NCBI GenBank assembly: GCA_041663585.1
Contig: JBAYMN010000001.1
Span: 475 to 64,474 of the forward strand
DNA from: Clostridia bacterium
Lineage (GTDB): Bacteria; Bacillota; Clostridia; Christensenellales; UBA1242
Direction: 5' to 3'
Length of the DNA: 64,000 bases
Below, one piece after another: positions 7,203 through 64,000 of this stretch. The notes beneath the pieces are model-generated. The model had not been told where the DNA came from, searched no databases, and saw nothing but the letters and a program-made list of their open reading frames with translations. Position numbers and translations under genes: made by a program. Position 1 is the stretch's first letter, and each line of letters begins with the position of its first letter.

Positions 7203-7255
7203 TTTATATAATACTTTCTAAAAGTTGCAAGTTAAATAATAATTTGGTTTAGATA

Positions 7256-7316
7256 GGATACGCTAAGTAGTTTAAACGGTGCCACTTTCCGCCTATCCAT
7301 CAGGTAGGCGGAACAA
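7256..7316 (+). repeat. structured intergenic repeat: ACGCTAAGTAGTTTAAAC arm + GGTGCC + bulged hairpin TTCCGCCTA-T-CC-ATCA-GG-TAGGCGGAA
   Basis: Matches copies at 18940-19016 (reverse strand) and 44209-44373. The hairpin also recurs at 30928-30954 and 59030-59056. Confidence 0.75.
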
Positions 7317-18939: not shown

Positions 18940-19016
18940 ATTTATTCCGCCTACCTAACGGATAGGCGGAACGAGGCACCGTTAAAAAAATTGAGTTTAA
19001 ACTACTGAGCGTGTTC
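18940..19016 (-). repeat. structured intergenic repeat, reverse-orientation copy
   Basis: The reverse complement reads GAACACGCTCAGTAGTTTAAAC-TCAATTTTTTTAAC-GGTGCC-TCG-TTCCGCCTA-T-CC-GTTA-GG-TAGGCGGAA. Collinear with 7256-7316 and 44209-44373. Confidence 0.75.
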
Positions 19017-19065
19017 TATTTGAACAAAGTTTTGATATTATTTTTTGGAAAAGCAGAAAATAAAA

Positions 19066-19833
19066 CTATAATGACAACACAATGTTTTTGCAGATATTTG
19101 TTAATCGTTCTCGGACAGCCGTTTGTTTGTTCCAGTTTCTGCTATCCCATTCATCTTTTGATAAGTCATCACCACTATAAATAATAGCACCGTATTCTAT
19201 ACCACGGAATTTTGCTACCGCTAACATTGAGGCTTGTTCCATTTCTACAATAATACAGCCTTCTTTTTTTCGTAGTTCAATCTTATTTGCGGTTTCGCGG
19301 TATATTGCATCAGTTGTCCATGTTTTACCTATAATATAATCTATTTTTTGTGTTTGTAAATAGTTTGTTATTTTGTTAATCACTGTAATATTTGCTTTTA
19401 CTGTTCGACTGGGTTTTAAATAATGATAACTAAAACCTTCATCGCGTACTGCTTCATTTACAACTATATATTTACCCACAGTAATATCGCTTTTTAGTGA
19501 ACCGGCTCCACCGCATAAAATTACTTTTTTTACACCTAATGATATAAATTCTTCTAGGAATGCACCGCAAGCAGGACCGCCTATTGTACCTTGAACTATT
19601 GCACAATCGCCAGTATTAAATTTATAAATATGCAAATCAAGCATTTCACTAGGAAAATTTGCTAACATTGAAATTTCGCCTTTACTTAATAAATAGGCAA
19701 TCACTTCCTTAAAAAAACATATTACAAGTCTTTCAGGTAACTTTACATTTATTTTAATTGTTTCGGCAGATGGATTAATAAGAGCGTTTGTATCTTTATC
19801 AAATTCTAAGATAGGGTATTTTTTTATAAGCAT
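19066..19833 (-). CDS. nucleoside phosphorylase (PNP_UDP_1 family, uridine phosphorylase-like)
   Basis: 255 aa. Conserved GGAGS and VEMEQASMLAVA blocks. Confidence 0.75.
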   Translation of the reverse strand: MLIKKYPILEFDKDTNALINPSAETIKINVKLPERLVICFFKEVIAYLLSKGEISMLANFPSEMLDLHIYKFNTGDCAIVQGTIGGPACGAFLEEFISLGVKKVILCGGAGSLKSDITVGKYIVVNEAVRDEGFSYHYLKPSRTVKANITVINKITNYLQTQKIDYIIGKTWTTDAIYRETANKIELRKKEGCIIVEMEQASMLAVAKFRGIEYGAIIYSGDDLSKDEWDSRNWNKQTAVRERLTNICKNIVLSL

Positions 19834-30811: not shown

Positions 30812-30815
30812 TTCA

Positions 30816-30957
30816 AAAGGGAAACCACTTTAAAAGGGAAACCACGAGCCGATAAGTAGCGGACACGCAAATTTAAAATTTGCTAACCGCTGGACTCGTG
30901 GCTTCCCTCTTTAACCGCGGAATTATATTCCGCTTGTCCGTTAGGCAAGCGGAACAA
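30816..30957 (+). repeat. composite repeat: rod-hairpin module X (core 30842-30901) + GCGGAAT-TAT-ATTCCGC palindrome + bulged hairpin (30928-30954)
   Basis: The X core matches 58647-58706 with 2 substitutions and 1 indel. The hairpin matches the TTCCGC...GCGGAA family. AAAAGGGAAACCAC occurs twice in tandem (30816-30829, 30832-30845). Confidence 0.8.
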
Positions 30958-31029
30958 AATATAACATATATATTTTAATATTTGCAAATAAATATTATAA
31001 ATTTAAGTTGGATATAATATATTTCAGTA

Positions 31030-32627: not shown

Positions 32628-32702
32628 CGGGGTGTAGCGCAGTGGTAGCGCGCATGGTTCGGGACCATGAGGTCGCAAGTTCAAATCTTGTCATCCCGAC
32701 CA
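32628..32702 (+). tRNA. tRNA-Pro (anticodon CGG)
   Basis: Cloverleaf by hand: acceptor CGGGGTG/CATCCCG, anticodon loop TTCGGGA, T-arm GCAAG-TTCAAAT-CTTGT, encoded CCA. Confidence 0.9.
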
Positions 32703-37904: not shown

Positions 37905-38035
37905 TAACCTATAAAGAGTGCGTGAGGGACAGCCCCATTGAACGCACAGCAACCTGTTAAAAGGCAAGGTGCTAATGGCTGAACGATGGGTATTTGTACA
38001 AATAATTTGTCCTACCTATTAAGGCGGGCTTTTTT
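37905..38035 (+). promoter_or_regulatory. SAM-I (S-box) riboswitch with terminator
   Basis: Hallmarks are GAGGGA inside the P2 pairing GTGCGT/ACGCAC, then AGCAACC and AAGGTGCTAA. It ends with CCTACC-TATTAA-GGCGGG followed by CTTTTTT. Located upstream of metK. Confidence 0.8.
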
Positions 38036-38074
38036 ATGAATATTAGGTTAAATTTACTAAGGAAGGCAGAAAAA

Positions 38075-39163
38075 ATGAAACAAATTATTTCTAGCGAAAG
38101 TGTAAATTGTGGGCATCCTGATAAAACTTGCGATATTATTGCAGATAGTTTTTTAGATATGGCTCTTAATGAAGATCCAAATTCGCAAATGGCAGTTGAG
38201 TGTGCTATTAAAGATGATTTACTGATGATTTATGGCGAAGCAACTACAAATGCAAAAATTGATTATGAAAGTATTGCAAGACAAACATTAAAAGAAATTG
38301 GCTACAAAAATAGATTTAGAATTATTAAACAAATATCTGAGCAATCACCTGATATTAATAATGCAGTTGTAAAGTCAGAATTAATGGCAAACGACCAAGG
38401 TATTGTTTATGGCTATGCTACAAATGAAACCCCAGAATATATGCCTATGCCTATAATAATTGCACACAAATTAATGCGTATTTATGATGAGTTTAGGCGT
38501 ACAACGGATACATATTTTAGTGATGCAAAAAGTCAGGTAAGTATTGAGTACGAAGATGATAAACCAATATTAATACACACTGTACTTTTATCGGTATCAC
38601 ATAGTGCAAGAATTTCGCACGAACAAATTTATAAAGATATTAGAACAAATGTTATTGATAAAGTGCTAGATGAGTATAAAAATCTTGTAAAACAAAGCAT
38701 AAAATATATAGTTAATCCAAGTGGCAGATTTACTATTTGGGGTAGTTTTGGTGACAGCGGTTGTGTAGGCCGAAAAATTGTTGTTGATACTTATGGTGGT
38801 GTTGGCAGAGTTGGTGGAGGCTGTTTTAGTAGTAAAAACGCTACAAAAGTTGACCGTAGCGGTGCGTACTATGCTAGATTTGTTGCAAAAAATGTAGTAG
38901 CACATAATTTAGCGGATAAATGCGAAATCCAAGTTGGTTATGGTATCGGTATGGCAGAACCAATTAATCTATATATCGATTGCTTTGGAACACAAAAAGT
39001 ATCAATTGAAAAGATATACGAAATTGTAAATGCAAATTTTAGTTTTCGCCCATCAAATATTATTAGAGAACTTGATTTATTAAAGCCACAATATAAAAAG
39101 ACCGCTTGTTATGGACATTTTGGAAGACCAGAATTTAGCTGGGAAAAAATTAAAAATTTTTAA
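38075..39163 (+). CDS. metK: S-adenosylmethionine synthase
   Basis: ATG at 38075 after an AGGAAGG RBS. The ORF-track ATG at 38036 directly abuts the riboswitch terminator. Motifs SESVNCGHPDK and GGGCFSSKNATKVDRS. Confidence 0.93.
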   Translation: MKQIISSESVNCGHPDKTCDIIADSFLDMALNEDPNSQMAVECAIKDDLLMIYGEATTNAKIDYESIARQTLKEIGYKNRFRIIKQISEQSPDINNAVVKSELMANDQGIVYGYATNETPEYMPMPIIIAHKLMRIYDEFRRTTDTYFSDAKSQVSIEYEDDKPILIHTVLLSVSHSARISHEQIYKDIRTNVIDKVLDEYKNLVKQSIKYIVNPSGRFTIWGSFGDSGCVGRKIVVDTYGGVGRVGGGCFSSKNATKVDRSGAYYARFVAKNVVAHNLADKCEIQVGYGIGMAEPINLYIDCFGTQKVSIEKIYEIVNANFSFRPSNIIRELDLLKPQYKKTACYGHFGRPEFSWEKIKNF

Positions 39164-41022: not shown

Positions 41023-41237
41023 TAAATAATATAGTCTACTTATTATCATTATTAATTACAATGTTTGTATTCTTATCAAAATTTAAAAGGAAAATATATT
41101 TTTAATTGTGATTTAGTATTGACTTTACGATTTATTAATGCTAGTATTGCAATTGTGTATTTACCGTTTTAATTAATAGTGATGAGAATTACATAGTTCT
41201 CATCATTTTGTTTGATAATATATACGAGGGAGTTTTT

Positions 41238-43040
41238 ATGCTATTTAATAATTTAAATCTAACTGAAAATATTTTGGCTGTGCTTGCTGAAATGGGCTTT
41301 ATTGAGCCCACTGAAATTCAGGAAAAGTGCATTCCGTTAATATTAACCAAAAAAGATGTTGTTGGACTTTCTCAAACTGGCTCAGGAAAGACCTTTGCTT
41401 TTGGTTTGCCAATTATACAAAACATTGACAAAGAACTGGGCGGAGTTCAAGCACTTATTGTTAGCCCAACAAGGGAACTTGCACTTCAAACTACAAATGA
41501 ATTAAAAAAGTTTTCTTCTATTACAGGAGTTAAAGTTGTTGCTGTATATGGCGGTGCCGATATTAATAGACAAATTACTTCACTTAAAAAGGCAAATATT
41601 GTTGTTGGCACACCGGGCAGAATTATGGACCATCTTGATAGGCGAACGCTTAAACTGGGACTTATTAAAACTGTTGTCCTTGATGAAGCCGATGAAATGC
41701 TAAATATGGGATTTAGAGATGATATTGAAAAAATTTTAAAATCCGCTCCATCAATTAGACAAACTTTAATGTTTTCGGCTACTATGCCGCCAGAAATTAT
41801 GACAATAACTAAAAACTATATGATTGAGCCAGCAATTATCAGGTTGGCACAACGAGATGAACAAGGCAAAACCAATCAATATTATTTAAATGTTAAACGT
41901 GGCAAAAAAATGGAAGTTCTTGTTGATTTGTTGCACGAATTAAGGCCAAGATTATCATTAGTTTTTTGCAATACCAAAAGAATGGTTGATGATTTACAAG
42001 AAAGACTTGACCAAGAAAATTTTTTAGTTGCCGGATTACATGGAGATAAACGCCAATCAGAACGCAAACGTGTTATGGATGCATTTAAAAGTGGAGAGAA
42101 AAATGTGTTAATTGCAACTGATGTTGCAGCAAGGGGAATTGATGTTAAAGGTATTGAATGTGTGTTTAATTACGATTTACCATATGACATAGAGTACTAT
42201 ACTCATAGAATAGGCAGAACAGGTAGGGCTGGTGGCGAAGGCGACGCATATTCACTTGTAAGCGGAAGTGCGCAATATGAAAATTTAATGGATTTCGTTA
42301 AAAAACTCAATGCACCATTAAAAGAATATTCACCGAAGAATTTGGAAAATATTAGTAAAAAAGAGGGAAAAGAAATGGATTCATTTAAAGAAAAAAGAGA
42401 AGCACCAAAACCAGTAGATTTTGTGGGTAATTTTGTTTCTGCAACTAAAAAAACGGTAAGTGAAAAAGCAAAATCTACTCATTTAGAACTTACCACATTA
42501 GGTTATGATGATAAGCAAATTGCAGACATATTAATTGATATGTTGGCATCACAAAAAGCACCCATTGAAAGAACCGAGAGAAGTAGTTATCCTAGAAGAG
42601 AAAGTCACTTTGGCGACAGAAAGCCAAGCTTTAAAAGAGATGAAAGAAGAGATAGTAATTTTAGTGATGCCCGCAGACCTAGCTTTCAAAGAGATGAAAA
42701 AAGTAGCAGTTATTTAGGTAGAAAGCCAAGTTTTAACAGAGATGAAAAAAGTGGTGGGTACGCAGACAGAAAGCCGAGTTTTAACAGAGAAAGAAATGAA
42801 AACACTTTTGATAAAAGGGATCGTGAAGAAATAATTCATACAAGTGGAAGAAAACCTTTTTCAGATAGGTCTTATGAAAAAAAAGCACCAAGAAGTTTTG
42901 AGCATAATTCAGTAGATGGTGGCGAAAGAAAAACCGAATATAGAGGTCGTTCTAATTTTGGAAGTAAACCTTTTTCAGATAGAAACCGCACATCACACAC
43001 TTACAGTGATAGAAAACCAAGACCAACTACCGGAGAATAG
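41238..43040 (+). CDS. DEAD-box ATP-dependent RNA helicase with repetitive basic C-terminal tail
   Basis: ATG at 41238 after a GAGGGA RBS. Motifs PTEIQ, SQTGSGKT, DEAD, SAT, HRIGRTGRAG. The tail has 4 x RKPSF(K/N)R(D/E) repeats. Confidence 0.9.
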   Translation: MLFNNLNLTENILAVLAEMGFIEPTEIQEKCIPLILTKKDVVGLSQTGSGKTFAFGLPIIQNIDKELGGVQALIVSPTRELALQTTNELKKFSSITGVKVVAVYGGADINRQITSLKKANIVVGTPGRIMDHLDRRTLKLGLIKTVVLDEADEMLNMGFRDDIEKILKSAPSIRQTLMFSATMPPEIMTITKNYMIEPAIIRLAQRDEQGKTNQYYLNVKRGKKMEVLVDLLHELRPRLSLVFCNTKRMVDDLQERLDQENFLVAGLHGDKRQSERKRVMDAFKSGEKNVLIATDVAARGIDVKGIECVFNYDLPYDIEYYTHRIGRTGRAGGEGDAYSLVSGSAQYENLMDFVKKLNAPLKEYSPKNLENISKKEGKEMDSFKEKREAPKPVDFVGNFVSATKKTVSEKAKSTHLELTTLGYDDKQIADILIDMLASQKAPIERTERSSYPRRESHFGDRKPSFKRDERRDSNFSDARRPSFQRDEKSSSYLGRKPSFNRDEKSGGYADRKPSFNRERNENTFDKRDREEIIHTSGRKPFSDRSYEKKAPRSFEHNSVDGGERKTEYRGRSNFGSKPFSDRNRTSHTYSDRKPRPTTGE

Positions 43041-43238: not shown

Positions 43239-44177
43239 ATGGCAAAAATTTATTCTAGTTTAACAGAATTAATAGGAAACACACCACTATTAGAAATTAA
43301 AAATTATAACAAAAAGAACAATTTAAAAGCAAAAATTATTTGTAAGATTGAGTACTTTAACCCAACAGGTAGTATTAAAGATAGGATAGCAAAATCAATG
43401 ATTTTAGATGCTGAAAAAAGTGGACTGCTAGACAAAAATTCTATTATCGTAGAGCCGACAAGCGGAAATACTGGAATTGGACTTGTGGCAGTTGCTGCCA
43501 CAAAAAACTATAAAGTAATACTTACAATGCCTGATACTATGAGTATTGAAAGACAAAAACTTTTAAAAGCCTATGGCGCCGAAATTGTACTTACCGAAGG
43601 TCATAAAGGTATTAAAGGTGCAATCGAAAAAGCAAAAGAAATAGTCAGTTTAACATCAAATGCAATTATGCTTAATCAATTTGCTAATCTTTCAAATCCT
43701 AAGATTCATAGACTTACCACAGGACCTGAAATTTGGAGTGATACAAAAGGGAAATTAGATTTTTTTATTTCGGGTGTTGGAACTGGTGGCACAATAACCG
43801 GTTCGGGCGAATTTTTAAAAAGTAAAAGTGAAAATATTAAAGTAATAGCAGTAGAGCCTTACGACTCGCCAGTACTTTCGGAAAACAGAGCGGGGGCACA
43901 TAAATTACAGGGTATTGGAGCAGGCTTTGTTCCCGAAATTTTAAATACAAAAATATATGATGATATTGTAAAAGTACAAACCGAAGATGCTTATAGCGCT
44001 AGTAGACAATTAGCAAAAACAGAAGGCATTTTAGCAGGTATATCTTCTGGTGCAGCACTTTATGCGGCAACCATTATTGCAAAAAGAGATGAAAATAAAG
44101 GCAAAATTATTGTAGTAATTTTGCCCGATAGTGGCGATAGATATTTATCTACTGAATTATTTAGTACTATCAAATAA
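43239..44177 (+). CDS. cysK: cysteine synthase A (O-acetylserine sulfhydrylase)
   Basis: 312 aa. PLP-lysine NPTGSIKDR, PTSGNTGIGLA, GVGTGGTITG. Confidence 0.9.
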   Translation: MAKIYSSLTELIGNTPLLEIKNYNKKNNLKAKIICKIEYFNPTGSIKDRIAKSMILDAEKSGLLDKNSIIVEPTSGNTGIGLVAVAATKNYKVILTMPDTMSIERQKLLKAYGAEIVLTEGHKGIKGAIEKAKEIVSLTSNAIMLNQFANLSNPKIHRLTTGPEIWSDTKGKLDFFISGVGTGGTITGSGEFLKSKSENIKVIAVEPYDSPVLSENRAGAHKLQGIGAGFVPEILNTKIYDDIVKVQTEDAYSASRQLAKTEGILAGISSGAALYAATIIAKRDENKGKIIVVILPDSGDRYLSTELFSTIK

Positions 44178-44208
44178 AGTGTACTATGTTGCTCACTTTT
44201 ATAATTTA

Positions 44209-44373
44209 GAACACGCAAAGTAGTTTAAATATAAAGATTTTTAAATGATTTAGCCCTAAACAGGTTCCGACGCGTATCAATACGCTAGGTGGTTCTGCTT
44301 GGGGCTAAGGCGTTAAAAAGATTATATTTAAACGGCGCCTAGTTCCGCTTTTCCGGTAGGAAAGCGGAATAAA
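44209..44373 (+). repeat. structured intergenic repeat carrying a ~97-nt nested insert
   Basis: GAACACGCAAAGTAGTTTAAA-[44230-44326 insert]-TTTAAACGGCGCC-TAG-TTCCGCTTT-T-CC-GGTA-GG-AAAGCGGAA. TTTAAA is present on both sides of the insert. The hairpin overlaps the folD 3' end. Confidence 0.75.
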
Positions 44374-45328: not shown

Positions 45329-45403
45329 TGGTCGGGATGACAAGGTTTGAACTTGCGACCTCACAGTCCCTAACCGTGCGCGCTACCACTGCGCTACACC
45401 CCG
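45329..45403 (-). tRNA. tRNA-Pro (anticodon AGG)
   Basis: The reverse complement folds as a cloverleaf nearly identical to the other two tRNA-Pro genes. The anticodon loop is TTAGGGA (A at position 34). CCA is encoded. Confidence 0.85.
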
Positions 45404-57057: not shown

Positions 57058-57297
57058 AGTTGCATATTTATTCATTGTATTTATAAATATGCAAATTTTA
57101 TGTATAATTCTTATGAGAAAAAATATTTAAACTTTCATTTTTATATTTAAATAACAAAACATCGCGCAAAAAATTAAATATTTAGTATTATTTAAATATT
57201 TTTTGGAATTATATATTGTTAAATTTGACAATATATTTTTCTTGTGTTAATTTTATAATATATAAAATACTTGTATATTTTAGTAAAGGATAATATT

Positions 57298-58638
57298 TTG
57301 AAAAAAGAACAATTTATCGAATTTTTGGAAGAACATATTTTGCCTATATTTACTGGCTCCGAAATAAGCGGAGAGGAGCAGTCAAGCCCGCGTGATGCAC
57401 AAGTTGCGCAGGGAGTGGGGGGTAGCATACTTGCAAAATTTAACAAACAAGATGAATATCGAATTATAATAAAACGAATACAGCCATTTAAAACAATAGA
57501 AGTTTCACTCGTTAAATCCATTATAGAAGAACTTAAAGAGTTATCGCAGTACACTATTAAAAATGAATACATTAAAAAGTTTCAATCTTACGCCATTGAA
57601 AAAGCTATTTGTAAAGCAGTATCTCAAAAATCAAGTGTTACACTGTTAGAATTGATAAGTGAAATTTCAATTTGGTCGCAACGCACTTACGAAGGACATT
57701 ATTCTTCGTTTGGCTTTGTTATGTCGCCTAAAAAAATGGCAAAAGTGACTAACGAAAATCTGCATTTCTCAAATATGCTTTCTCGTGATTTCTCTGCATT
57801 GCTTTCTGATGGGGTGAACACTTTTTTGGAAATTTCGGCTGATGGTTATCTAATCGGATATATCACAGCCCCGCGTACTAACGATTATAATATTCTTAGT
57901 CCTTACGAATTTAGTAAAATTGCTAATATTTCAGAAGGCAATAAAATTGGTATTTCACTGCTTACAAACGGTGATATTTTGTTGTTTAAAGACCAAATGC
58001 TAGTCTTTGCAAAAAAGAATGGATTTTGGACAAGTTACAGCCACGAAGAAATTATACATAGAATTGCTGACAAAACAAAAGAATCGGCTGAGGATATTAG
58101 AAAGGCAATTTATTTAACTGCATTAGATACTTCTTTTTCTAAATCGGGCGGTTGTATAGTGCATTTAAACAAAGATGACATAAAAGAAGCATTAAAACAT
58201 ATTGATGTTTATGATATTTTAATGTCTGAATATTATCAAATTAAAATTGAAGAAAATCTAAATTATTCCTTCTTAGAAGAAAAAATGCAAGAACAAAAAA
58301 TTGTATCGTTTGAAGATTTTGTTGAAGATGAAAAGTGCATTAAAATTGTTAATTTGTGTAAAGTTATTGACGGTCGCAAATTCAATGAACTTGATAGAAA
58401 TTTGCGTAAAGAATTAGTTGCTATTGATGGTGCGACAGTTATTGATAATGATGGAAATATTGTTGCTATCGGTGCTATTATAAAAATTGAAGCAGGCAGT
58501 ACCGGTGGTGGCAGACTTGCTGCAACAAAAACACTTTCTAAATATGGCGTTGCAATTAAAATTTCGGCTGATGGCTCTATTGAAGGCTACCATTTTGATA
58601 AAAATAGAAATAAAACGAAGCCACTATTCTTCTTGTAA
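57298..58638 (+). CDS. DisA_N (diadenylate cyclase fold)-like protein with large N-terminal region; RHR motif absent
   Basis: ORF 57271-58638; the in-frame TTG at 57298 follows an AAAGGA RBS. The C-terminus IDGATVIDNDGNIVAIGAII...GGGRLAATKTLSKYGVAIKISADGSIEGY aligns by eye to the DAC core HDGAVII..G.I.AA...GTRHRAA...VSEETG.IS. Confidence 0.55.
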   Translation: MKKEQFIEFLEEHILPIFTGSEISGEEQSSPRDAQVAQGVGGSILAKFNKQDEYRIIIKRIQPFKTIEVSLVKSIIEELKELSQYTIKNEYIKKFQSYAIEKAICKAVSQKSSVTLLELISEISIWSQRTYEGHYSSFGFVMSPKKMAKVTNENLHFSNMLSRDFSALLSDGVNTFLEISADGYLIGYITAPRTNDYNILSPYEFSKIANISEGNKIGISLLTNGDILLFKDQMLVFAKKNGFWTSYSHEEIIHRIADKTKESAEDIRKAIYLTALDTSFSKSGGCIVHLNKDDIKEALKHIDVYDILMSEYYQIKIEENLNYSFLEEKMQEQKIVSFEDFVEDEKCIKIVNLCKVIDGRKFNELDRNLRKELVAIDGATVIDNDGNIVAIGAIIKIEAGSTGGGRLAATKTLSKYGVAIKISADGSIEGYHFDKNRNKTKPLFFL

Positions 58639-58718
58639 AAAGGACACCACGAGCCGATAAGTAGCGGGCACGCAAATTTAAAAATTTGCTAACCGCTGGG
58701 CTCGTGTGTTTCCCTTTT
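58639..58718 (+). repeat. rod-hairpin module X, second copy (core 58647-58706)
   Basis: CCACGAGCCGATAAGTAGCGGGCACGCAAATTTAAAAATTTGCTAACCGCTGGGCTCGTG; compare 30842-30901. Confidence 0.8.
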
Positions 58719-58772
58719 AATCGCGTTTTTGCTAAAAACGCTAATCCCTTCCTTCATAGGATATCACTCAAA

Positions 58773-58812
58773 ATAAGCAAGTCAGGCAAAGCCTAAGACT
58801 TGCTTATTTTTT
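58773..58812 (+). terminator. strong terminator-like hairpin downstream of the DAC-like gene
   Basis: ATAAGCAAGTCAGGC-AAA-GCCT(AA)GACTTGCTTAT followed by TTTTT. Confidence 0.6.
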
Positions 58813-58937
58813 CGTGGGGGATTTTTGAGCCATACTGCACATTTTAAGCATACTGATGTAAACATACAGCATATTCTTGCTGTACTTTCGAATTGAAAAG
58901 TAAAGTAGCATAAAATTAAAGATTTTTGGAATATTTG
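58781..58937 (+). repeat. 157-nt direct repeat, copy 1
   Basis: 154 of 157 positions are identical to 59062-59218. Confidence 0.9.
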
Positions 58938-58941
58938 TTTT

Positions 58942-58988
58942 AAAACAGGTTGCCGATTGCACCAGTGGTTGCATCGGCGTTCTGTTTT
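58942..58988 (+). repeat. symmetric hairpin AAAACAG-GTT-GCCGATTGCA-loop-TGCATCGGC-GTT-CTGTTTT
   Basis: Has the same outer frame (AAACAG-GTT ... GTT-CTG(C/T)TT) as 44258-44300, with a different inner stem. Confidence 0.65.
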
Positions 58989-59029
58989 AAGACAAAGAGC
59001 CTAAAAGGTTAATTTTAAGCGGCTCTAAT

Positions 59030-59056
59030 TTCCGCTTGACCGTTAGGCAAGCGGAA
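59030..59056 (+). repeat. bulged hairpin of the TTCCGC...GCGGAA family
   Basis: TTCCGCTTG-A-CC-GTTA-GG-CAAGCGGAA. Confidence 0.8.
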
Positions 59057-59061
59057 CAAAG

Positions 59062-59218
59062 GTCAGGCAAAGCCTAAGACTTACTTATTTTTTCGTGGGG
59101 GATTTTTGAGCCATACTGCACATTTTAAGCATACTGATGTAAACATACAGCATATTCTTGATGTACTTTCGAATTGAAAAGTAAAGTAGCATAAAATTAA
59201 AGATTTTTAGAATATTTG
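59062..59218 (+). repeat. 157-nt direct repeat, copy 2
   Basis: Has 3 substitutions relative to 58781-58937 and is offset by 281 nt. Ends 12 nt before the sigF stop codon. Confidence 0.9.
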
Positions 59219-59230
59219 ATTTAAAAAGAA

Positions 59231-59953
59231 TTAAAATTTTGAAGCAAGTTTTTCTATAACTTTGGCTTCAAGGCGACTGACTTGAACTTGTGATATACCT
59301 AAAAGTTCGGCAACTTCACTTTGAGTTTTATCTCTAAAATAGCGTAGTAGAATTATTTGTTTTTCTCGTGGCAATAGTAGTTTTATACTTTTTTTAAGTA
59401 TAAATTTATCTATAACATCTTCACTATAATCTACTTCTATAATTTTATCAATTAACAGTTGACCTTTTTCTTTGCTTTCTCCGGCACATTTTGCATCTAA
59501 TGATATCGGCATTTTAGAAGAATCCAAAGCAAAAACAATATCCTGGGTATCTAAATTTAATTCTTTTGCTAAATATTCAATAGTGGGGGACTCGCCGGTT
59601 TTTTGGCGATACTCATCGGAAATTTTTTTTATTATCATTGCTTGTTTTTTTACTATGCGTGATACTTTTATATATCCATCATCACGCATAAATCGTTTTA
59701 ATTCACCTGTAATCATAGGCACAGCATAAGTGGAAAAATGCACTCCGTATTTTTCATCAAAATTCTTTATTGCTTTTAAAAAACCTACACAACCTAATTG
59801 ATACAAGTCATCATATTCAATCCCGCTTGTTCGGTATCTTCGTATTATGCTTTTTATTAACGGGGAATTATGCTCTAAAAGAACTGTTTTGGCATTTTCA
59901 TCGCCTGATTGAGCAAGTTTTATATATTTTAGCGTTTCCTCATGTTCAAGCAT
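59231..59953 (-). CDS. sigF: RNA polymerase sporulation sigma factor SigF
   Basis: 240 aa sigma-70 family protein (regions 2-4; YAVPMITGELKRF, SQSEVAELLGISQVQVSRLE). Third gene of the spoIIA operon; overlaps spoIIAB by 8 nt. Confidence 0.9.
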   Translation of the reverse strand: MLEHEETLKYIKLAQSGDENAKTVLLEHNSPLIKSIIRRYRTSGIEYDDLYQLGCVGFLKAIKNFDEKYGVHFSTYAVPMITGELKRFMRDDGYIKVSRIVKKQAMIIKKISDEYRQKTGESPTIEYLAKELNLDTQDIVFALDSSKMPISLDAKCAGESKEKGQLLIDKIIEVDYSEDVIDKFILKKSIKLLLPREKQIILLRYFRDKTQSEVAELLGISQVQVSRLEAKVIEKLASKF

Positions 59954-60425
59954 TTTTATCCTCCGCTTTACTACTGCTTGCTTTGCTTTTAAATGTTTTT
60001 GTCATTTCAACTTTTACTCCATTAGGTTTTTGTGCTGAAACTTCTACAATATCCATAAAACTTTCCATAACCGTAAATCCCATACCGGATCGTTCTTGTT
60101 CGGGCTTAGATGTGTAAAATGGCTCCATTGCTTTTTTAATGTCTTGTATGCCAACGCCCCAGTCGCTTATTGTTACATTTAAAGTATTGCCCTGAATTTC
60201 GGCTTTTATTAAAATATCTCCGACCGAATTAGGGTAGGCATGCACTACACAATTTGTAACGGCTTCGGATACCGCCGTTTTTACATCATTAATTTCTTCT
60301 AATGTTGGATTTGCTTGCACGCAAAAAGCGGCAACTGTGCTACGGGCAAAACTTTCATTTTGTGAATAAGATTTAATGGTTAATGTCATTTCATTTTTTT
60401 CTAAAACTTCTTTTTTTGTGTTCAT
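59946..60425 (-). CDS. spoIIAB: anti-sigma F factor (serine kinase) SpoIIAB
   Basis: 159 aa. KNEMTLTIKSYSQNESFARSTVAAF and the GHKL motifs EAVTNCVVHAY and GMGFTVME. AGGAG RBS. Confidence 0.92.
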   Translation of the reverse strand: MNTKKEVLEKNEMTLTIKSYSQNESFARSTVAAFCVQANPTLEEINDVKTAVSEAVTNCVVHAYPNSVGDILIKAEIQGNTLNVTISDWGVGIQDIKKAMEPFYTSKPEQERSGMGFTVMESFMDIVEVSAQKPNGVKVEMTKTFKSKASSSKAEDKNA

Positions 60426-60435
60426 AGTTTTTCTC

Positions 60436-60744
60436 CTAATTTATTTTTGGCATTATGTCATATAAGCCTGTCATTTTAAAAATTCGTTCTGCTTGTATTG
60501 ATGGATTGCAGATGTATATGGGAACATTTTTGTCTTTCATTTTTTTGTAACGACCAATTAAAACACCTATGCCTGTACTATCCATAAAATTTAATTCCGA
60601 TAAATCGATTATTATTTGCTTTGCAATTGTTTTGCCTAACATTTCATCTAGTGTCATACGCGTGTAAACGGAAGAATGTTCATCAAGTTCTCCGCATAAA
60701 GCGATATATAAAATATTGTTGTAAATCCGACTTTTAACTTGCAT
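60436..60744 (-). CDS. spoIIAA: anti-sigma F factor antagonist SpoIIAA (STAS domain)
   Basis: 102 aa. Phosphorylatable Ser context FMDSTGIGVL. AGGAGG RBS. Confidence 0.9.
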   Translation of the reverse strand: MQVKSRIYNNILYIALCGELDEHSSVYTRMTLDEMLGKTIAKQIIIDLSELNFMDSTGIGVLIGRYKKMKDKNVPIYICNPSIQAERIFKMTGLYDIMPKIN

Positions 60745-60987: not shown

Positions 60988-61062
60988 CGGGGTGTAGCGC
61001 AGTGGTAGCGCACACGGTTTGGGACCGTGGGGTCGCAAGTTCAAACCTTGTCACCCCGACCA
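60988..61062 (+). tRNA. tRNA-Pro (anticodon UGG)
   Basis: Hand-folded cloverleaf. Anticodon loop TTTGGGA. CCA encoded. Confidence 0.9.
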
Positions 61063-61122
61063 AATATTTTCTGCCCATTTGCGTACAATGAAAAATACAT
61101 AATGTTAGTGTTCAAAATATTA

Positions 61123-61199
61123 GGGCCTTTAGCTCAGTTGGTTAGAGCGACCGGCTCATAACCGGTTGGTCCGCGGTTCAAGTCCGTGAAGGCCCACCA
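61123..61199 (+). tRNA. tRNA with CAU anticodon: elongator Met or Ile2 (lysidine)
   Basis: Acceptor GGGCCTT/AAGGCCC with a G1-C72 pair, so not an initiator. Anticodon loop CTCATAA. Overall resembles ileX-type sequences. Confidence 0.85.
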
Positions 61200-61209
61200 C
61201 CTAATTTTT

Positions 61210-61286
61210 GGCCTGGTAGCTCAGTTGGTTAGAGTGCAAGCCTGTCACGCTTGAGGTCGAGGGTTCGAACCCCTTTCAGGTCGCCA
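61210..61286 (+). tRNA. tRNA-Asp (anticodon GUC)
   Basis: Anticodon loop CTGTCAC, discriminator G, CCA encoded. Confidence 0.9.
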
Positions 61287-61314
61287 TTATAAATTGCCCG
61301 TAGGGGCAAAAAAT

Positions 61315-61390
61315 GCCTTGGTAGCTCAGTCGGTAGAGCAGGAGACTGAAAATCTCCGTGTCGGTGGTTCAATTCCGCCCCAAGGCACCA
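61315..61390 (+). tRNA. tRNA-Phe (anticodon GAA)
   Basis: Acceptor GCCTTGG/CCAAGGC, anticodon loop CTGAAAA, CCA encoded. Confidence 0.9.
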
Positions 61391-61424
61391 CAAGTAATAT
61401 TAACTTGTAGGTGGTATATTATTT

Positions 61425-61499
61425 GCTGGTGTGGCTCAATGGCAGAGCAGCTGACTTGTAATCAGCAGGTTGGTGGTTCAACTCCACTCACCAGCTCCA
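61425..61499 (+). tRNA. tRNA-Thr (anticodon UGU)
   Basis: Acceptor GCTGGTG/CACCAGC, anticodon loop CTTGTAA, CCA encoded. Confidence 0.9.
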
Positions 61500-61627
61500 T
61501 TTTAACTTCAAAATTTTATAAATTTAATCGTTTCTGTTTCATGTTTAGACCAGTCATTTATGTTTATATAAACTCCTGTCCTAAACATTTCGCGAGCCTC
61601 TAAATTTATTAAATTTTGAAGTTAAAA
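61500..61627 (+). repeat. 128-nt element with 27-bp terminal inverted repeats between tRNA-Thr and tRNA-Tyr
   Basis: The left arm 61500-61526 (TTTTAACTTCAAAATTTTATAAATTTA) matches the reverse complement of 61601-61627 at 26 of 27 positions. A nested inverted repeat ATGTTTAGAC / GTCCTAAACAT lies inside. Confidence 0.8.
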
Positions 61628-61660
61628 CCATTACTTTGTTTAACTTTATACTTAAAAATA

Positions 61661-61746
61661 TGGGCAGGTTCCAGAGTGGCCAAATGGGGCGGACTGTAAA
61701 TCCGTTGTCTACGACTTCGATGGTCCGAATCCATCCCTGCCCACCA
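61661..61746 (+). tRNA. tRNA-Tyr (anticodon GUA), long variable arm
   Basis: Acceptor GGGCAGG/CCTGCCC, anticodon loop CTGTAAA, class II variable arm, CCA encoded. Confidence 0.9.
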
Positions 61747-62035: not shown

Positions 62036-64000
62036 TTAATTGTGTACTCGTGGGGCTCTTCCGTTTTGTACCGGAGCAAATATTGAACCTATCATAGAAG
62101 TATTTCTATTTACTACTCTGTTTGTAGTTGTATTTTGATTTTGTGTGTTATTAATGCTACTGGTACGAGTGGCAGGATTGTTCGCTGAGGTTGTTGTAGG
62201 AGTTGTGCCATTATTAACTGCTGTATTATTAGTATTTACCGCTGTGTTATTTGCAACTCCACTTGTAACGGAAGTACCATTATAATTATTGTTTTGTGTA
62301 TTATTTAAACCATTTGTGTTTGTATTGGTTGTTCCGCTTGTAGTATTATCATTAGTTACGCTAGTTCCGGTTGTGCCATTAGTTACGCTAGTTCCGGTTG
62401 TGCCATTAGTTACGCTAGTTCCGGTTGTATCAGCAGTTGTTGTATCGGTTGCATCGGTAGTGATTAGATTGTCATTTAAGATTGATTGTATTTGTGTTAA
62501 TGCCAAATATGAAGTGTAGCAATTTGACAATCTATTTTCTAATACATTTAAAACTCTTAAATATTTTGCATTTATTACGTCAACATTGCTATTAAAGTTG
62601 TCCATTAAACCGCTTACACCACTTAAACTGCTTACTAAATTACTATTATCATTTTCAATTGATTTATTAATTGTTGATAGAGTAACAATATATTCTTTAA
62701 TTGTAGCAAGTTCATTTGCTGATAATGTTACATTTGCAGAATTAAGTTGACTTGTTATAGTTTTTAGATTTTGTGCAATCGAAATTATTTCCGATTTTAA
62801 ACTATCAAGTTCTGAATTTGCAGTAAGCACATCATTATTCATTGTTGATAAACTTTCTATTCTTGTTAAATAGTTATCCACTAAACTAGTATAGCCACTT
62901 CTTGAAGTACGCATAGTCGAATTAGTTGTGCCACTGGTATTTGTCGTATTTGTTGTACCAGTTGTATTTGTTGTGGAACTTGTACGAGCATTATTTGTAT
63001 TATTATTGTTACTTATACCTGATACAGCATTTTTTATACGACTAAACGGAGAATAATTTCCGCTTAATCCCGAGCCTCTTATATATCTATAAGTAGGATA
63101 GTAAGTGCTGTTTTGGTCTGAACTTTGATAAACAGAATTGTTAGGATTTAAAACACTATTGTTAGTTGTTGTTCTGTTAAGTATTGCATTATTTGCTGAT
63201 GCAGAATTATTTACACTATTAGAGTTTAAGGCATTACTACTGGTATTATTAATATTTGCATTATTTACAGTTGTTCTAGCGCCACCACTTAATGTATTAG
63301 CGTTTGTATTATTAGTATTTATTGAATTAGTTGTGTCAGTAGTTGTATTGTTATTTATAGAATTCATATTACTTCTGTAATCACGATACATTTGTTGACG
63401 CTGTGTGGCAGTATTAGGGCTTTGAACTGCTGTGTTATTAAAATTGTCATTTGCCGTAATAGTGCTATTAACTGTGTTCACTGTTGGTATATTAGCATTA
63501 TTAACATTTGTTGAAGATGTATTATTAGTATTTGCATTGGTAACTCCCGTTTGATTTGCAACATTTTGTGCAGTTACGCTGTCTGCTAAATAATATAGGG
63601 TTGGGTCATATGCTCTTGGATTTGCTGAATTTGTGTTACTTGTATAATTTGTGCTATCCATAGGTGTGCGAGTGTAAAATCTATTTCGGTATGTGCTTGG
63701 TCCGCCCATTCTATAATCGGTATATGGTGCCGAACTTACTGTATTATTATTTGTTGTATCTGTGTTTGTTGCAGTACTTGTAGCATTTGTATTATTTAAA
63801 GTACTTGTGTAAACTCTATCATTTGTGTTATTTGCTGTGCTAGATGTATTTATTCCGTTAGTGGTGCTTGTGTTTGGATAATCCACCGAGTATGAACCAG
63901 AATACGCTCTTCCACGATATAAATATGGTGTGTTGTAAACATTTCCGCTTGTATTATTGGCGCTAGTGGAATTACCAACTGAACCTTGGTATGCTGTTGA
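62036..64000 (-). CDS. very large Asn/Thr/Ser-rich low-complexity protein with central helical core (5' end outside window)
   Basis: The reading frame is open from 64000 down to the stop at 62036. The ORF-track GTG at 63886 is internal, because the frame stays open upstream of it. Residues about 340-470 (LVDNYLTRIESL...LTQIQSILNDN) are non-repetitive and heptad-like. Confidence 0.6.
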   Translation of the reverse strand, partial: STAYQGSVGNSTSANNTSGNVYNTPYLYRGRAYSGSYSVDYPNTSTTNGINTSSTANNTNDRVYTSTLNNTNATSTATNTDTTNNNTVSSAPYTDYRMGGPSTYRNRFYTRTPMDSTNYTSNTNSANPRAYDPTLYYLADSVTAQNVANQTGVTNANTNNTSSTNVNNANIPTVNTVNSTITANDNFNNTAVQSPNTATQRQQMYRDYRSNMNSINNNTTTDTTNSINTNNTNANTLSGGARTTVNNANINNTSSNALNSNSVNNSASANNAILNRTTTNNSVLNPNNSVYQSSDQNSTYYPTYRYIRGSGLSGNYSPFSRIKNAVSGISNNNNTNNARTSSTTNTTGTTNTTNTSGTTNSTMRTSRSGYTSLVDNYLTRIESLSTMNNDVLTANSELDSLKSEIISIAQNLKTITSQLNSANVTLSANELATIKEYIVTLSTINKSIENDNSNLVSSLSGVSGLMDNFNSNVDVINAKYLRVLNVLENRLSNCYTSYLALTQIQSILNDNLITTDATDTTTADTTGTSVTNGTTGTSVTNGTTGTSVTNDNTTSGTTNTNTNGLNNTQNNNYNGTSVTSGVANNTAVNTNNTAVNNGTTPTTTSANNPATRTSSINNTQNQNTTTNRVVNRNTSMIGSIFAPVQNGRAPRVHN
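62351..62431 (-). repeat. 3 x 27-bp tandem repeat inside the Asn/Thr-rich gene (encodes TGTSVTNGT x3)
   Basis: Units 62351-62377 and 62378-62404 are identical. The third unit, 62405-62431, diverges only at its end. Confidence 0.9.

What the first reader, a model, noticed from the sequence alone, without database searches (positions are those of the whole stretch)
58639..59230. 590-nt gene-free composite of structured modules and two 157-nt direct repeats next to the spoIIA (sigF) operon
No ORF of 60 aa or more lies between the DAC-like gene and the sigF stop. The region is instead densely structured. In order it contains:
- module X (58639-58718)
- the hairpin GCGTTTTT-GCT-AAAAACGC (58724-58742)
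- a strong terminator-like hairpin (58773-58812)
- 157-nt repeat R1 (58781-58937)
- the symmetric hairpin at 58942-58988
- the AGAGCC...GGCTCT hairpin (58996-59026)
- a family hairpin (59030-59056)
- repeat R2 (59062-59218)
R1 and R2 are 154/157 identical and offset by 281 nt. R2 lacks the left arm of the terminator stem that precedes R1. Such high identity in a neutral AT-rich spacer suggests a recent duplication or conservation. This is the longest non-coding stretch in the window, and it abuts a key developmental operon.
Basis: seen in the sequence. Interest (0 to 1): 0.6.

Follow-up and report, generated by a model that had tools for sequence, protein, structure and literature searches.

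The report
Mosaic palindromic repeat array beside sigF
The 590-base gene-free gap next to the sporulation sigma-F operon is about one and a half copies of a hairpin-rich repeat element that this uncultured Clostridia lineage carries just after the stop codons of many unrelated genes, so it is very unlikely to be a sigF-specific regulator.

Summary
R1 (58781-58945) and R2 (59062-59226) match at 161 of 165 positions with a 281-nt offset. No ORF of 60 aa or more lies in the spacer, and the spacer folds far better than shuffled sequence.

R is not a free-standing unit. R1 is the middle of a composite element of about 425 nt (58636-59060): X, a small hairpin, a C/U-rich linker, bidirectional terminator T, an unstructured R body, a GTAG head, and three more hairpins. 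The same colinear element recurs at 85-90% identity on unrelated metagenome contigs. There it sits behind SSB, HU, DnaJ-domain, TraG and other genes. It is co-oriented with the upstream gene in 11 of 12 copies, and its 5' end lies 0-5 nt after that gene's TAA stop in 10 of 12. R2 is a partial second unit.

Relatives with 85-90% SigF identity have a plain terminator after sigF and no R. One strain contig carries a single hybrid R. No Rfam family matches, and the small ORFs are not conserved.

Verdict: this is a lineage-specific mosaic extragenic repeat, similar in kind to BIME or BOX elements. It supplies the shared terminator of the two convergent genes. Interest is moderate to low. The stop-codon anchoring, and X evolving more slowly than synonymous sites, are the points worth following up.

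The parts
58636..59060 (+). One complete copy of the composite repeat element E. Its order is X, small hairpin, C/U-rich linker, terminator T, R body, GTAG head, symmetric hairpin, AGAGCC hairpin, H hairpin.
   Evidence: It is colinear at 85-90% identity with L101 5122-5487 (contig end), L099 1105-1618 and L092 2519-2207. Partial copies occur in L095, L097, L100 and L096.
58636..58722 (+). Module X, an 87-nt imperfect palindrome. Its first three bases are the TAA stop codon of the 455-aa ORF. Its internal loop carries GATAAGTAG.
   Evidence: Folds at -36 kcal/mol, z -6.2. A paralogue lies at window 30831-30916. Ten metagenome contigs carry its 20-nt core. At the orthologous site in L102 it is 92% identical, against 65% at third codon positions of the adjacent gene.
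58723..58741 (+). Small hairpin hp2 (GCGTTTTTGCTAAAAACGC), variant a.
   Evidence: Weak fold, -2.7 kcal/mol, z -1.6. The orthologous site in L102, and the copies in L097 and L099, carry the other variant, GCGGAATTATATTCCGC.
58743..58769 (+). C/U-rich linker (AATCCCTTCCTTCATAGGATATCACTC).
   Evidence: Its first 17 nt (AATCCCTTCCTTCATAG) are nearly invariant across family copies; the rest varies more. In the full fold it pairs with the G-run that follows T.
58770..58812 (.). Hairpin T, a bidirectional intrinsic terminator. It has a 14-bp stem with an A-run on one side and a T-run on the other. It is shared by the 455-aa gene on the + strand and, in the short form, directly by the sigF operon on the - strand.
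   Evidence: Inverted repeat I6 is 100% complementary. Folds at -21.4 and -22.2 kcal/mol, z -7.6 and -5.8. Five of 22 pairs show compensatory changes across copies.
58781..58945 (+). Direct repeat R1. It covers the T loop, the right arm of T, the R body and the GTAG head.
58811..58896 (+). R body, the unstructured and least conserved segment of the element.
   Evidence: z -0.5 on both strands. It is 68-86% identical between family copies, against 98.9% between R1 and R2. The small ORFs within it are not conserved.
58897..58941 (+). GTAG head (AAAGTAAAGTAGCATAAAATTAAAGATTTTTGGAATATTTG...), the start of the Y-H block.
   Evidence: It is colinear with 44217-44270 (family D6). The related motif ACGCNNAGTAGTTTAAA occurs three times in the window against 0 expected.
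58942..58988 (.). Symmetric hairpin symHP.
   Evidence: Folds at -27.1 and -22.5 kcal/mol, z -6.5 and -6.8. It is 90-97% identical in L101, L099 and L093. The version at 44250-44308 keeps the same shape with different stem bases.
58996..59026 (.). AGAGCC...GGCTCT hairpin (hp3).
   Evidence: Weak fold, -8.5 kcal/mol, z -1.9. It is present in L099.
59030..59056 (.). H hairpin (TTCCGCTTG ACCGTTAGG CAAGCGGAA), a member of a dispersed family.
   Evidence: Five exact-pattern copies in the window against 0.07 expected. In the 10-copy alignment 97% of cells are paired, 2 of 11 pairs change on both sides, and 0 of 500 shuffles reach the observed score.
59062..59226 (+). Direct repeat R2, a partial second unit. 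It covers the T loop, the right arm of T, the R body and the head. It is cut off 4 nt before the sigF stop and lacks the left arm of T.
   Evidence: The same junction, H followed by the right arm of T and an R body, recurs in L096 7213-7370.
30812..30958 (+). A paralogous short form of the element. A 15-nt partial element start sits right after the stop of an SSB-domain gene, followed by a full X, hp2 variant b, and H.
44208..44370 (+). A paralogous Y-H block (GTAG head, long hairpin, second hairpin, H) that fills the convergent spacer after the ORF 43239-44177.
   Evidence: It is 85-89% identical to L096 5116-5276 and 7530-7695.
7253..7312 (+). A short head-plus-H form of the same family.
18942..19025 (-). 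A short head-plus-H form on the opposite strand, lying head-first after the stop of the - strand ORF 19066-19833.

Best explanation
The spacer is about 1.6 units of a lineage-specific, modular, palindrome-rich repeat family. In kind it is a mosaic extragenic repeat comparable to E. coli BIMEs or pneumococcal BOX elements.

One complete element E (58636-59060) starts on the TAA stop codon of the 455-aa gene. It consists of X, a small hairpin, a C/U-rich linker, the bidirectional intrinsic terminator T, an unstructured R body, a GTAG head, and three further hairpins ending in H. A second, partial unit (R2: T loop, right arm of T, R body, head) follows and runs to within 4 nt of the sigF stop.

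So R1 and R2 are the same internal segment of the family, present twice with a 281-nt period. The second copy most likely arose by unequal or ectopic recombination between family modules (inferred). The two copies still exchange sequence by gene conversion. They can also collapse to a single copy by crossover between R1 and R2, which is the state seen in L003.

Functionally (inferred from sequence): T terminates the 455-aa gene. T, or the hp3 and symmetric hairpins read on the - strand, end the sigF operon transcript. The strong hairpins would protect mRNA 3' ends. Nothing ties the region specifically to sigF or to sporulation.
For: Shown:
1. The whole stretch 58636-58946, and in L099 and L101 also the Y-H part, recurs colinearly at 85-90% identity on contigs that share no other similarity with the window.
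2. The genes upstream of these copies are unrelated: SSB, HU, a DnaJ-domain protein, TraG/VirD4, DUF3792 and several unknowns.
3. Eleven of 12 copies are co-oriented with the upstream ORF. In 10 of 12 a full or partial element 5' end lies 0-5 nt after that ORF's TAA.
4. Modules X, H and Y-H also occur in five other intergenic regions of this window.
5. The hairpins are kept by compensatory changes in H and T. The R body is unstructured and is the most divergent part.
6. The R bodies of R1 and R2 are 98.9% identical, against 68-86% between any other pair of copies.
7. The polymorphic site p101 shows the combinations C/A, A/C and C/C between R1 and R2 in different strains.
8. L003 has one hybrid R, with an R1-type left end and an R2-type right end, and lacks exactly 281 nt. 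The short form cannot produce the long form by simple duplication, because the 116-nt Y body is missing from it. The reverse change is a single crossover.
9. SigF relatives at 85-90% identity lack R and have a plain terminator.
10. The junction 'H followed by the right arm of T and an R body' recurs in L096.
11. There is no Rfam, phage or plasmid match.
Against: - Only 64 kb of this genome is available, and it holds no other T-R copy. The copy number of the full element in this species is therefore unknown. Most full copies come from a related species in one metagenome sample.
- The probe was an exact 20-mer from X, which biases the copies towards conserved X.
- No transposase or recombinase has been linked to the family, and no target-site duplication or empty site was found. 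The way the family spreads is unknown.
- X and the linker are much more conserved at orthologous sites than synonymous positions (92% against 65%). That fits selection or concerted evolution better than neutral junk, and it leaves room for a specific function.
- L003's short form could be an assembly collapse and not a real deletion.
- There are no expression data.
Confidence: 0.75

Rival explanations
1. R encodes a small regulatory RNA. One form would be a - strand RNA ending at T, with the C-rich motif UCCCCCAC acting as an anti-Shine-Dalgarno seed. Another would be a + strand transcript from promoter-like hexamers in the head. In R2 that transcript would run antisense into the 3' end of sigF. 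In either case the two R copies would be two sRNA genes controlling sigF or sporulation.
For: - On the - strand, R ends in a strong terminator preceded by an unpaired C-run.
- The head carries TTGAAT-N17-TAAAAT in several family copies (read from the alignment).
- GCATA-N17-CATATTC, which has sigma-F/G-like geometry, lies at 58848-58876 and 59129-59157 (read; the consensus is from my own knowledge).
- The R body has some conserved blocks.
Against: - The R body is unstructured (z -0.5) and is the least conserved part of the element.
- R is absent downstream of sigF in relatives with 85-90% SigF identity.
- The same segment lies next to unrelated genes.
- The promoter scan found no site inside R, and the number of sites in the region is below the shuffle expectation (2 found against 4.0 expected).
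- R2 lacks a complete terminator.
- No Rfam family matches.
Confidence: 0.08
2. R encodes a small protein, namely the 35-aa - strand ORF MLLYFSIRKYSKNMLYVYISMLKMCSMAQKSPTKK. This could be a type I toxin whose mRNA converges on an antisense RNA across the bidirectional terminator T.
For: - An ATG-initiated 35-aa ORF with a basic C-terminal tail lies in both R copies and ends just before T.
- A similar ORF is present in L099.
- Convergent layouts around a shared terminator, and multiple copies per genome, are typical of type I toxin-antitoxin loci (my own knowledge).
Against: - Across family copies the ORF is 35, 28, 25 and 35 aa long, and it is absent in two copies because of indels.
- Its ATG is ATA in the R2 of L002, L004, L005, L086 and L087.
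- Amino-acid identity between the window and L099 versions is about 54% (my count on the two sequences printed), at about 71% nucleotide identity of the R body. That is close to what neutral change would give.
- There is no Shine-Dalgarno sequence upstream, and the peptide has no clear hydrophobic helix.
Confidence: 0.03
3. R1 and R2 are two independent insertions of an active miniature transposon such as a MITE or REPIN, and not a local duplication or recombination product.
For: - The family is dispersed and strongly site-biased, sitting at stop codons.
- Short partial copies of the element start lie next to full copies, which could be footprints.
- GTAG followed by a hairpin resembles REP sites (REP features from my own knowledge).
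Against: - R2 starts inside the loop of T and ends inside the head, so it is not a complete unit.
- No terminal inverted repeats or target-site duplications bound R.
- The R bodies of R1 and R2 are 98.9% identical, against 68-86% for all other pairs.
- At the orthologous site in L102 the left part of the element is already present, so that part is old and not a recent insertion.
Confidence: 0.07
4. The repeat, or its absence in L003, is an assembly artefact.
For: - L003's single R is exactly the chimera that a collapsed repeat would produce.
- Short-read contigs L004, L005 and L087 break inside R.
Against: - The long form is assembled identically, with the same three fixed R1/R2 differences, in the window, L001 (ENA), L002 (NCBI MAG) and L086 (JGI). 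These differ from each other by SNPs elsewhere.
- Contig breaks inside R in three more samples are what a true repeat produces.
- The doubt therefore applies only to the short form.
Confidence: 0.03

Closest known systems
BIMEs (bacterial interspersed mosaic elements, clusters of REP/PU palindromes) of E. coli and other enterobacteria
   Same: - Mosaic chains of several different imperfect palindromes and linker motifs in variable combinations.
- Confined to extragenic space at gene 3' ends and between convergent genes.
- Able to act as terminators, attenuators or mRNA 3' stabilisers.
- Thought to evolve by gene conversion (roles and references as listed in PMC3337134; the rest is my own knowledge).
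   Different: - No sequence similarity.
- The host is an uncultured Clostridia lineage and not a proteobacterium.
- The modules are longer (X is 87 nt; the composite is about 425 nt).
- The composite has a largely fixed order that includes a canonical intrinsic terminator.
- Its 5' end is anchored on the upstream stop codon.
REPIN-RAYT systems
   Same: - Short imperfect palindromes that lie predominantly in extragenic space.
- Hairpin-forming.
- Persistent within a lineage (PMC3337134).
- A GTAG motif lies 5' of a hairpin inside X and in the head (GTAG as a REP feature is my own knowledge).
   Different: - The defining inverted REP doublet was not seen for H.
- No RAYT gene could be looked for, because only fragments of the genome are available.
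- The GTAG lies 20-100 nt away from H.
BOX elements of Streptococcus pneumoniae (boxA-boxB(n)-boxC)
   Same: - A Gram-positive, modular, intergenic repeat built from a few module types.
- Variable module number.
- Predicted stable secondary structure.
- No coding capacity (my own knowledge).
   Different: - No sequence relation was tested or expected.
- The module set is different.
- BOX elements are not reported to start on stop codons or to contain a canonical terminator.
MIRUs (mycobacterial interspersed repetitive units)
   Same: Intergenic repeats that are oriented with the flanking genes and whose ends overlap the stop codon of the upstream gene (my own knowledge).
   Different: - MIRUs are 40-100-bp tandem units inside operons.
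- They carry small ORFs that allow translational coupling.
- They are not palindrome chains.
Bidirectional intrinsic (Rho-independent) terminators between convergent genes
   Same: Module T has a 14-bp G+C-containing stem flanked by an A-run and a T-run. Close SigF relatives have just such a simple hairpin right after the sigF stop.
   Different: Here the terminator is one module of a repeated composite. In the long form it lies about 420 nt (59230 back to 58810) beyond the sigF stop.

Membership tests
Any described RNA family (Rfam 15) | A covariance-model match at or above the family's gathering score | tested here: not met
   No family reaches its threshold in 58400-59500. The best match is mir-5880 at 23 bits against a threshold of 97.
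Mosaic extragenic palindromic repeats (BIME-like kind) | Several distinct imperfect palindromes combined in variable order and number at many loci | tested here: met
   The architectures seen are X-H (30812-30958), head-H (7253-7312), head-symHP-hp-H (44208-44370), the full element (58636-59060, L099, L101), and longer arrays (L096).
Mosaic extragenic palindromic repeats (BIME-like kind) | Confined to extragenic space, typically at gene 3' ends | tested here: met
   All copies in the window lie between ORFs. Eleven of 12 X copies follow a co-oriented ORF.
Mosaic extragenic palindromic repeats (BIME-like kind) | High copy number within one genome | not testable with these tools
   Only 64 kb of this genome is held. 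Six of its intergenic regions carry family modules.
REPIN-RAYT | Two REPs in inverted orientation separated by a short spacer (a REPIN doublet) | tested here: not met
   H copies occur singly in every spacer seen. Definition taken from PMC3337134.
REPIN-RAYT | A cognate single-copy RAYT (Y1 transposase) gene flanked by the repeats | not testable with these tools
   The whole genome is not available. No such gene appears in the gene tables of L001 and L086.
MITE | Terminal inverted repeats and target-site duplication bounding the unit, with matching empty sites | tested here: inconclusive
   X is flanked by TTAA-like bases on both sides, but these are part of its own palindrome. R has no inverted ends. 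The one orthologous site found (L102) is already filled.
Intrinsic terminator (module T) | A G+C-containing stem-loop followed directly by a U-run, on the strand of the gene it ends | tested here: met
   A 14-bp perfect stem with TTTTTT after it on the + strand and TTTT on the - strand. Folds at -21.4 and -22.2 kcal/mol. The consensus scanner flagged only the inner mini-hairpin. Termination activity itself was not tested.
Type I toxin-antitoxin | A conserved small hydrophobic toxin ORF | tested here: not met
   The ORF's length and frame vary between copies. Its start codon is lost in the R2 of several strains.
Diversity-generating retroelement (TR/VR pair) | A reverse transcriptase gene nearby, VR inside a coding region, and differences only at TR adenines | tested here: not met
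   All four R1/R2 differences have A in R2. However, there is no reverse transcriptase within 10 kb on either side, neither copy is coding, and site p101 is reversed in L002.

The most novel reading that the evidence does not exclude
The element family could be more than selfish or neutral repeat DNA. It may be a previously undescribed, portable 3'-end cassette that is anchored on stop codons, often supplying the TAA itself, and always co-oriented with the gene. In this reading its X hairpin and C/U-rich linker are kept by selection: 92% identity at an orthologous site where synonymous positions are 65% identical. They would be the binding platform for a dedicated RNA- or ssDNA-binding protein. 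That protein could control mRNA 3'-end formation or stability, or it could mobilise the element to stop codons.
Probability: 0.2. Interest if true: 0.6.

Novelty: new member of a known kind. Interest (0 to 1): 0.35.

Why it matters
For the sigF operon it matters little. The spacer should not be annotated as a sporulation regulator or as a small-RNA locus.

Its value lies elsewhere:
- It documents an undescribed modular repeat family in an uncultured Clostridia lineage that has no close genome representative.
- The family breaks short-read contigs, since several contigs end inside it, and it marks a synteny breakpoint.
- It shows ongoing exchange between copies, and probably loss of a copy.
- It has two features that deserve a test on complete genomes: the element's 5' end sits on the stop codon of the upstream gene, and X is conserved well above the level of synonymous sites.

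Tried and rejected
- Rfam at gathering and at permissive thresholds: nothing.
- An exact 22-mer from R in species-representative genomes, JGI metagenome contigs and viral contigs: 0 hits each. The JGI collection evidently lacks the two samples that hold L003 and L086.
- The X core in viral contigs: 0 hits.
- blastn of the spacer against phage and plasmid collections: no match.
- 80 sigF loci from related species (SigF identity 63% or less): none carries the modules or the 455-aa gene.
- Small-protein reading: rejected because the ORFs are not conserved.
- DGR reading (all four R1/R2 differences are A in R2, roughly 2% by chance on my own estimate from base composition): rejected because there is no reverse transcriptase, neither copy is coding, and one site is reversed in L002.
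- Integron attC reading for X (a hairpin right after the stop of a promoterless gene): rejected because the copies follow ordinary housekeeping genes on separate contigs, and not arrays of cassettes.
- Sigma-70 or sigma-F/G promoter readings inside R: not supported beyond chance.
- 'DAC-like' identity of the 455-aa neighbour: no support. It belongs to a widespread but uncharacterised Clostridia family.
- L100's two copies turned out to be one copy seen twice, because the contig ends overlap by 123 nt at 100%.
Full report
**Observation**

The spacer 58639-59230 lies between two convergent genes. One is a 455-aa ORF on the + strand (57271-58638). The other is sigF on the - strand (59231-59953), which is preceded by spoIIAB and spoIIAA. 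The longest ORF lying within the spacer is 56 aa.

The direct repeat is real and slightly longer than reported. R1 is 58781-58945 and R2 is 59062-59226: 165 nt, 161/165 identical, offset 281. The spacer folds far better than shuffled sequence on both strands (z -9.4 and -8.2).

Folded module by module, the signal comes from four hairpins:
- X: -36 kcal/mol, z -6.2
- T: -21.4 and -22.2 kcal/mol, z -7.6 and -5.8
- the symmetric hairpin: z -6.5
- H: z -5.6

The small hairpin and the AGAGCC hairpin are marginal. The 90-nt body of R is not structured at all (z -0.5 on both strands). R2 lacks the left arm of T, and what is left of the hairpin folds at only -5.9 kcal/mol. No Rfam family matches at any useful threshold.

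**The modules are repeats within the window**

- A second X lies at 30831-30916. It is followed directly by an H hairpin at 30928-30958.
- The stretch 58902-59060 is colinear with 44217-44373.
- The H pattern TCCGC-N-GCGGA occurs five times in the window against 0.07 expected.
- A head motif, ACGCNNAGTAGTTTAAA, precedes H-type hairpins at 7260, 19012 (- strand) and 44213. It occurs three times against 0 expected.
- The tail of R is a diverged copy of this head (family D6).

**Strain-level relatives**

SigF's exact sequence is encoded on five contigs, and a 99% variant on two more. All are 99.4-99.9% identical to the window.

L001 (ENA), L002 (an NCBI MAG annotated as a Clostridia bacterium) and L086 (JGI) carry the same 592-nt spacer. 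They also share the same three fixed differences between R1 and R2. The fourth difference, site p101, is C/A in the window and L001, A/C in L002 and C/C in L086. That pattern indicates exchange between the two copies.

L003 (JGI 3300035208) has a 311-nt spacer with a single R. Its left end is R1-type and its right end is R2-type, and exactly 281 nt are missing. The missing 116-nt block between the repeats is absent from the short form, so the long form cannot arise from the short one by simple duplication. The short form follows from the long one by a single crossover, or by an assembler collapsing the repeat. R1 and R2 differ by 2.4%, whereas the strains differ by 0.1-0.6%. The duplication is therefore older than the split between these strains.

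Three short-read contigs end inside R, as expected for a true repeat.

**Beyond the species**

The best SigF in 185,579 species-representative genomes is only 63% identical. None of the 80 loci fetched carries any of the modules or the 455-aa gene. So the organism has no close representative, and the junction between sigF and the 455-aa gene is itself specific to this lineage.

In the large protein collection there are SigF relatives at 90%, 86% and 85% identity. Their contigs show unrelated sequence after the stop codon, beginning with a plain terminator hairpin. R is therefore not conserved downstream of sigF.

**The turning point**

An exact 20-mer from X (CACGAGCCGATAAGTAGCGG) hit ten JGI metagenome contigs. 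Eight came from the sample that also holds the 90% SigF relative. Mapping the spacer onto them gave these results:
- 58636-58946 recurs as one colinear block in L092 (87.6% over 314 nt) and in L099 (85% over 298 nt).
- In L099 the Y-H part follows, at 88% identity.
- In L101 the match covers 58633-59001 (90.5% over 370 nt) and is then cut by the contig end.
- Partial copies occur in L095, L097, L100 and L096.

These contigs share nothing else with the window. R1 is therefore the middle of a composite element of about 425 nt, and R2 is a partial second unit. L096 holds a longer array in which H is again followed by the right arm of T and an R body. That is the same junction as between H and R2 in the window. 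L099 has an extra module flanked by a duplicated head. Partial duplications next to inserted modules are thus a recurring property of the family.

**Conservation pattern**

- Between copies, X is 91-96% identical (biased upwards by the probe), T 82-96%, and the symmetric hairpin 90-97%. The R body is only 68-86% identical for every pair except R1/R2, which is 98.9%.
- H keeps its stem through changes on both sides at 2 of 11 pairs. In that alignment 97% of cells are paired and 0 of 500 shuffles reach the observed score.
- T has 5 of 22 pairs with compensatory changes.
- X is too invariant to test for covariation.
- The 35-aa - strand ORF inside R is 35, 28, 25 and 35 aa in four copies and absent in two. 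Its ATG is ATA in the R2 of several strains.

**Context**

Eleven of 12 X copies are co-oriented with an upstream ORF. In 10 of 12, a full or roughly 15-nt partial element start (AAAAGGGAMACC) lies 0-5 nt after that ORF's TAA. In four of them (58636, L094, L098, L101), and again in L102, the TAA is the first three bases of the element.

The upstream genes are unrelated: an SSB-domain protein, HU, a DnaJ-domain protein, TraG/VirD4, DUF3792 and several unknowns. At the other end, H abuts or overlaps the stop of the convergent gene at 7317, at 44339 and in L099. R2 ends 4 nt from the sigF stop.

The orthologue of the 455-aa gene in an 88% relative (L102, found by protein homology and so not biased by the probe) is also followed, on its TAA, by X, hp2, the linker and T. 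Its hp2 is the other variant. There X is 92% identical, while third codon positions of the gene are 65% identical. For the pair L092/L095 third positions are 57% identical. So X is held either by selection or by concerted evolution.

**Interpretation**

The spacer is one full unit and one partial unit of a lineage-specific mosaic palindromic repeat. In kind it is closest to BIME/REP clusters and to BOX elements. It resembles MIRUs in overlapping stop codons (comparisons partly from PMC3337134, and partly from my own knowledge). Surveys have reported stem-loop repeat families in cultured clostridia (PMC2267715).

Module T is a canonical bidirectional intrinsic terminator and is the likely end of the 455-aa gene's transcript. 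The sigF transcript would end at hp3, at the symmetric hairpin, or at T. These roles are inferred from sequence only.

Membership in REPIN-RAYT is not established. No inverted doublets were seen, and no RAYT gene could be searched for. MITE membership is inconclusive. The sRNA, small-protein, DGR and artefact readings are each weakened by specific results listed under rivals.

**What remains open**

- How the family spreads.
- Why its 5' end sits on stop codons.
- Whether X is selected.
- Whether L003's deletion is real.

These questions need a closed genome, read-level data and transcript-end mapping.

Noticed in passing
window 45329-45403 (- strand): A tRNA-Pro gene whose anticodon loop reads TTAGGGA, that is anticodon AGG, alongside tRNA-Pro(CGG) at 32628 and tRNA-Pro(TGG) at 60988. 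A34 in a proline tRNA is unusual for bacteria (my own knowledge). It would imply inosine wobble or an odd decoding set.
   Followed up: partly
window 62350-62438, inside the - strand ORF 62036-63886: A 27-nt tandem repeat (three copies) in a 616-aa ORF. L001 lacks one unit (27-nt gap at 62350-62376), so this in-frame repeat number varies between strains that are otherwise about 99.8% identical.
   Followed up: partly
window 57271-58638 (+): The 455-aa neighbour has no Pfam, NCBIfam or PDB sequence match, yet it has hundreds of homologues of about 447 aa at 50-57% identity in Clostridia MAGs. It is a widespread, uncharacterised family.
   Followed up: partly
window 30917-30956: GCGGAA-TTATA-TTCCGC-TTGTCCGTTAGGCAAGCGGAA. 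The right arm of hp2 variant b is also the left arm of H, so two mutually exclusive hairpins are possible, shaped like a terminator/antiterminator pair.
   Followed up: no
L100 (whole contig, 1607 nt): The contig ends overlap by 123 nt at 100% identity inside the element. This means either a circular assembly path of about 1.48 kb or a segment bounded by two identical element copies.
   Followed up: partly
L101 3058-5127 and 5122-5487: One element copy follows a TraG/VirD4-type coupling protein, so the family also occurs on a conjugative element in the related organism.
   Followed up: no
window 59231-60744, and L001 3816-5685: The spoVA genes (spoVAC, spoVAD, spoVAEB) are not downstream of sigF, unlike the usual arrangement in Bacillus and many clostridia (my own knowledge). 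They lie about 4 kb upstream on the opposite strand. A cluster of six tRNA genes (60988-61746) lies between them and spoIIAA.
   Followed up: no
window 37906-37992 (+): A SAM riboswitch (60 bits, above the gathering score) upstream of the ORF 38036-39163.
   Followed up: no
window 42624-42773: Three diverged copies of a 48-nt tandem repeat (start-to-start spacing 54 and 48 nt) inside the ORF 41208-43040.
   Followed up: no
L089 1283-1413, downstream of sigF in the 90% relative: After the plain sigF terminator, the sequence TTTAGAATGCAAATG resembles the start of the W module seen in L099 and L096. A second A-run, hairpin and T-run follows. The relative's sigF flank may also hold fragments of the family.
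   Followed up: no
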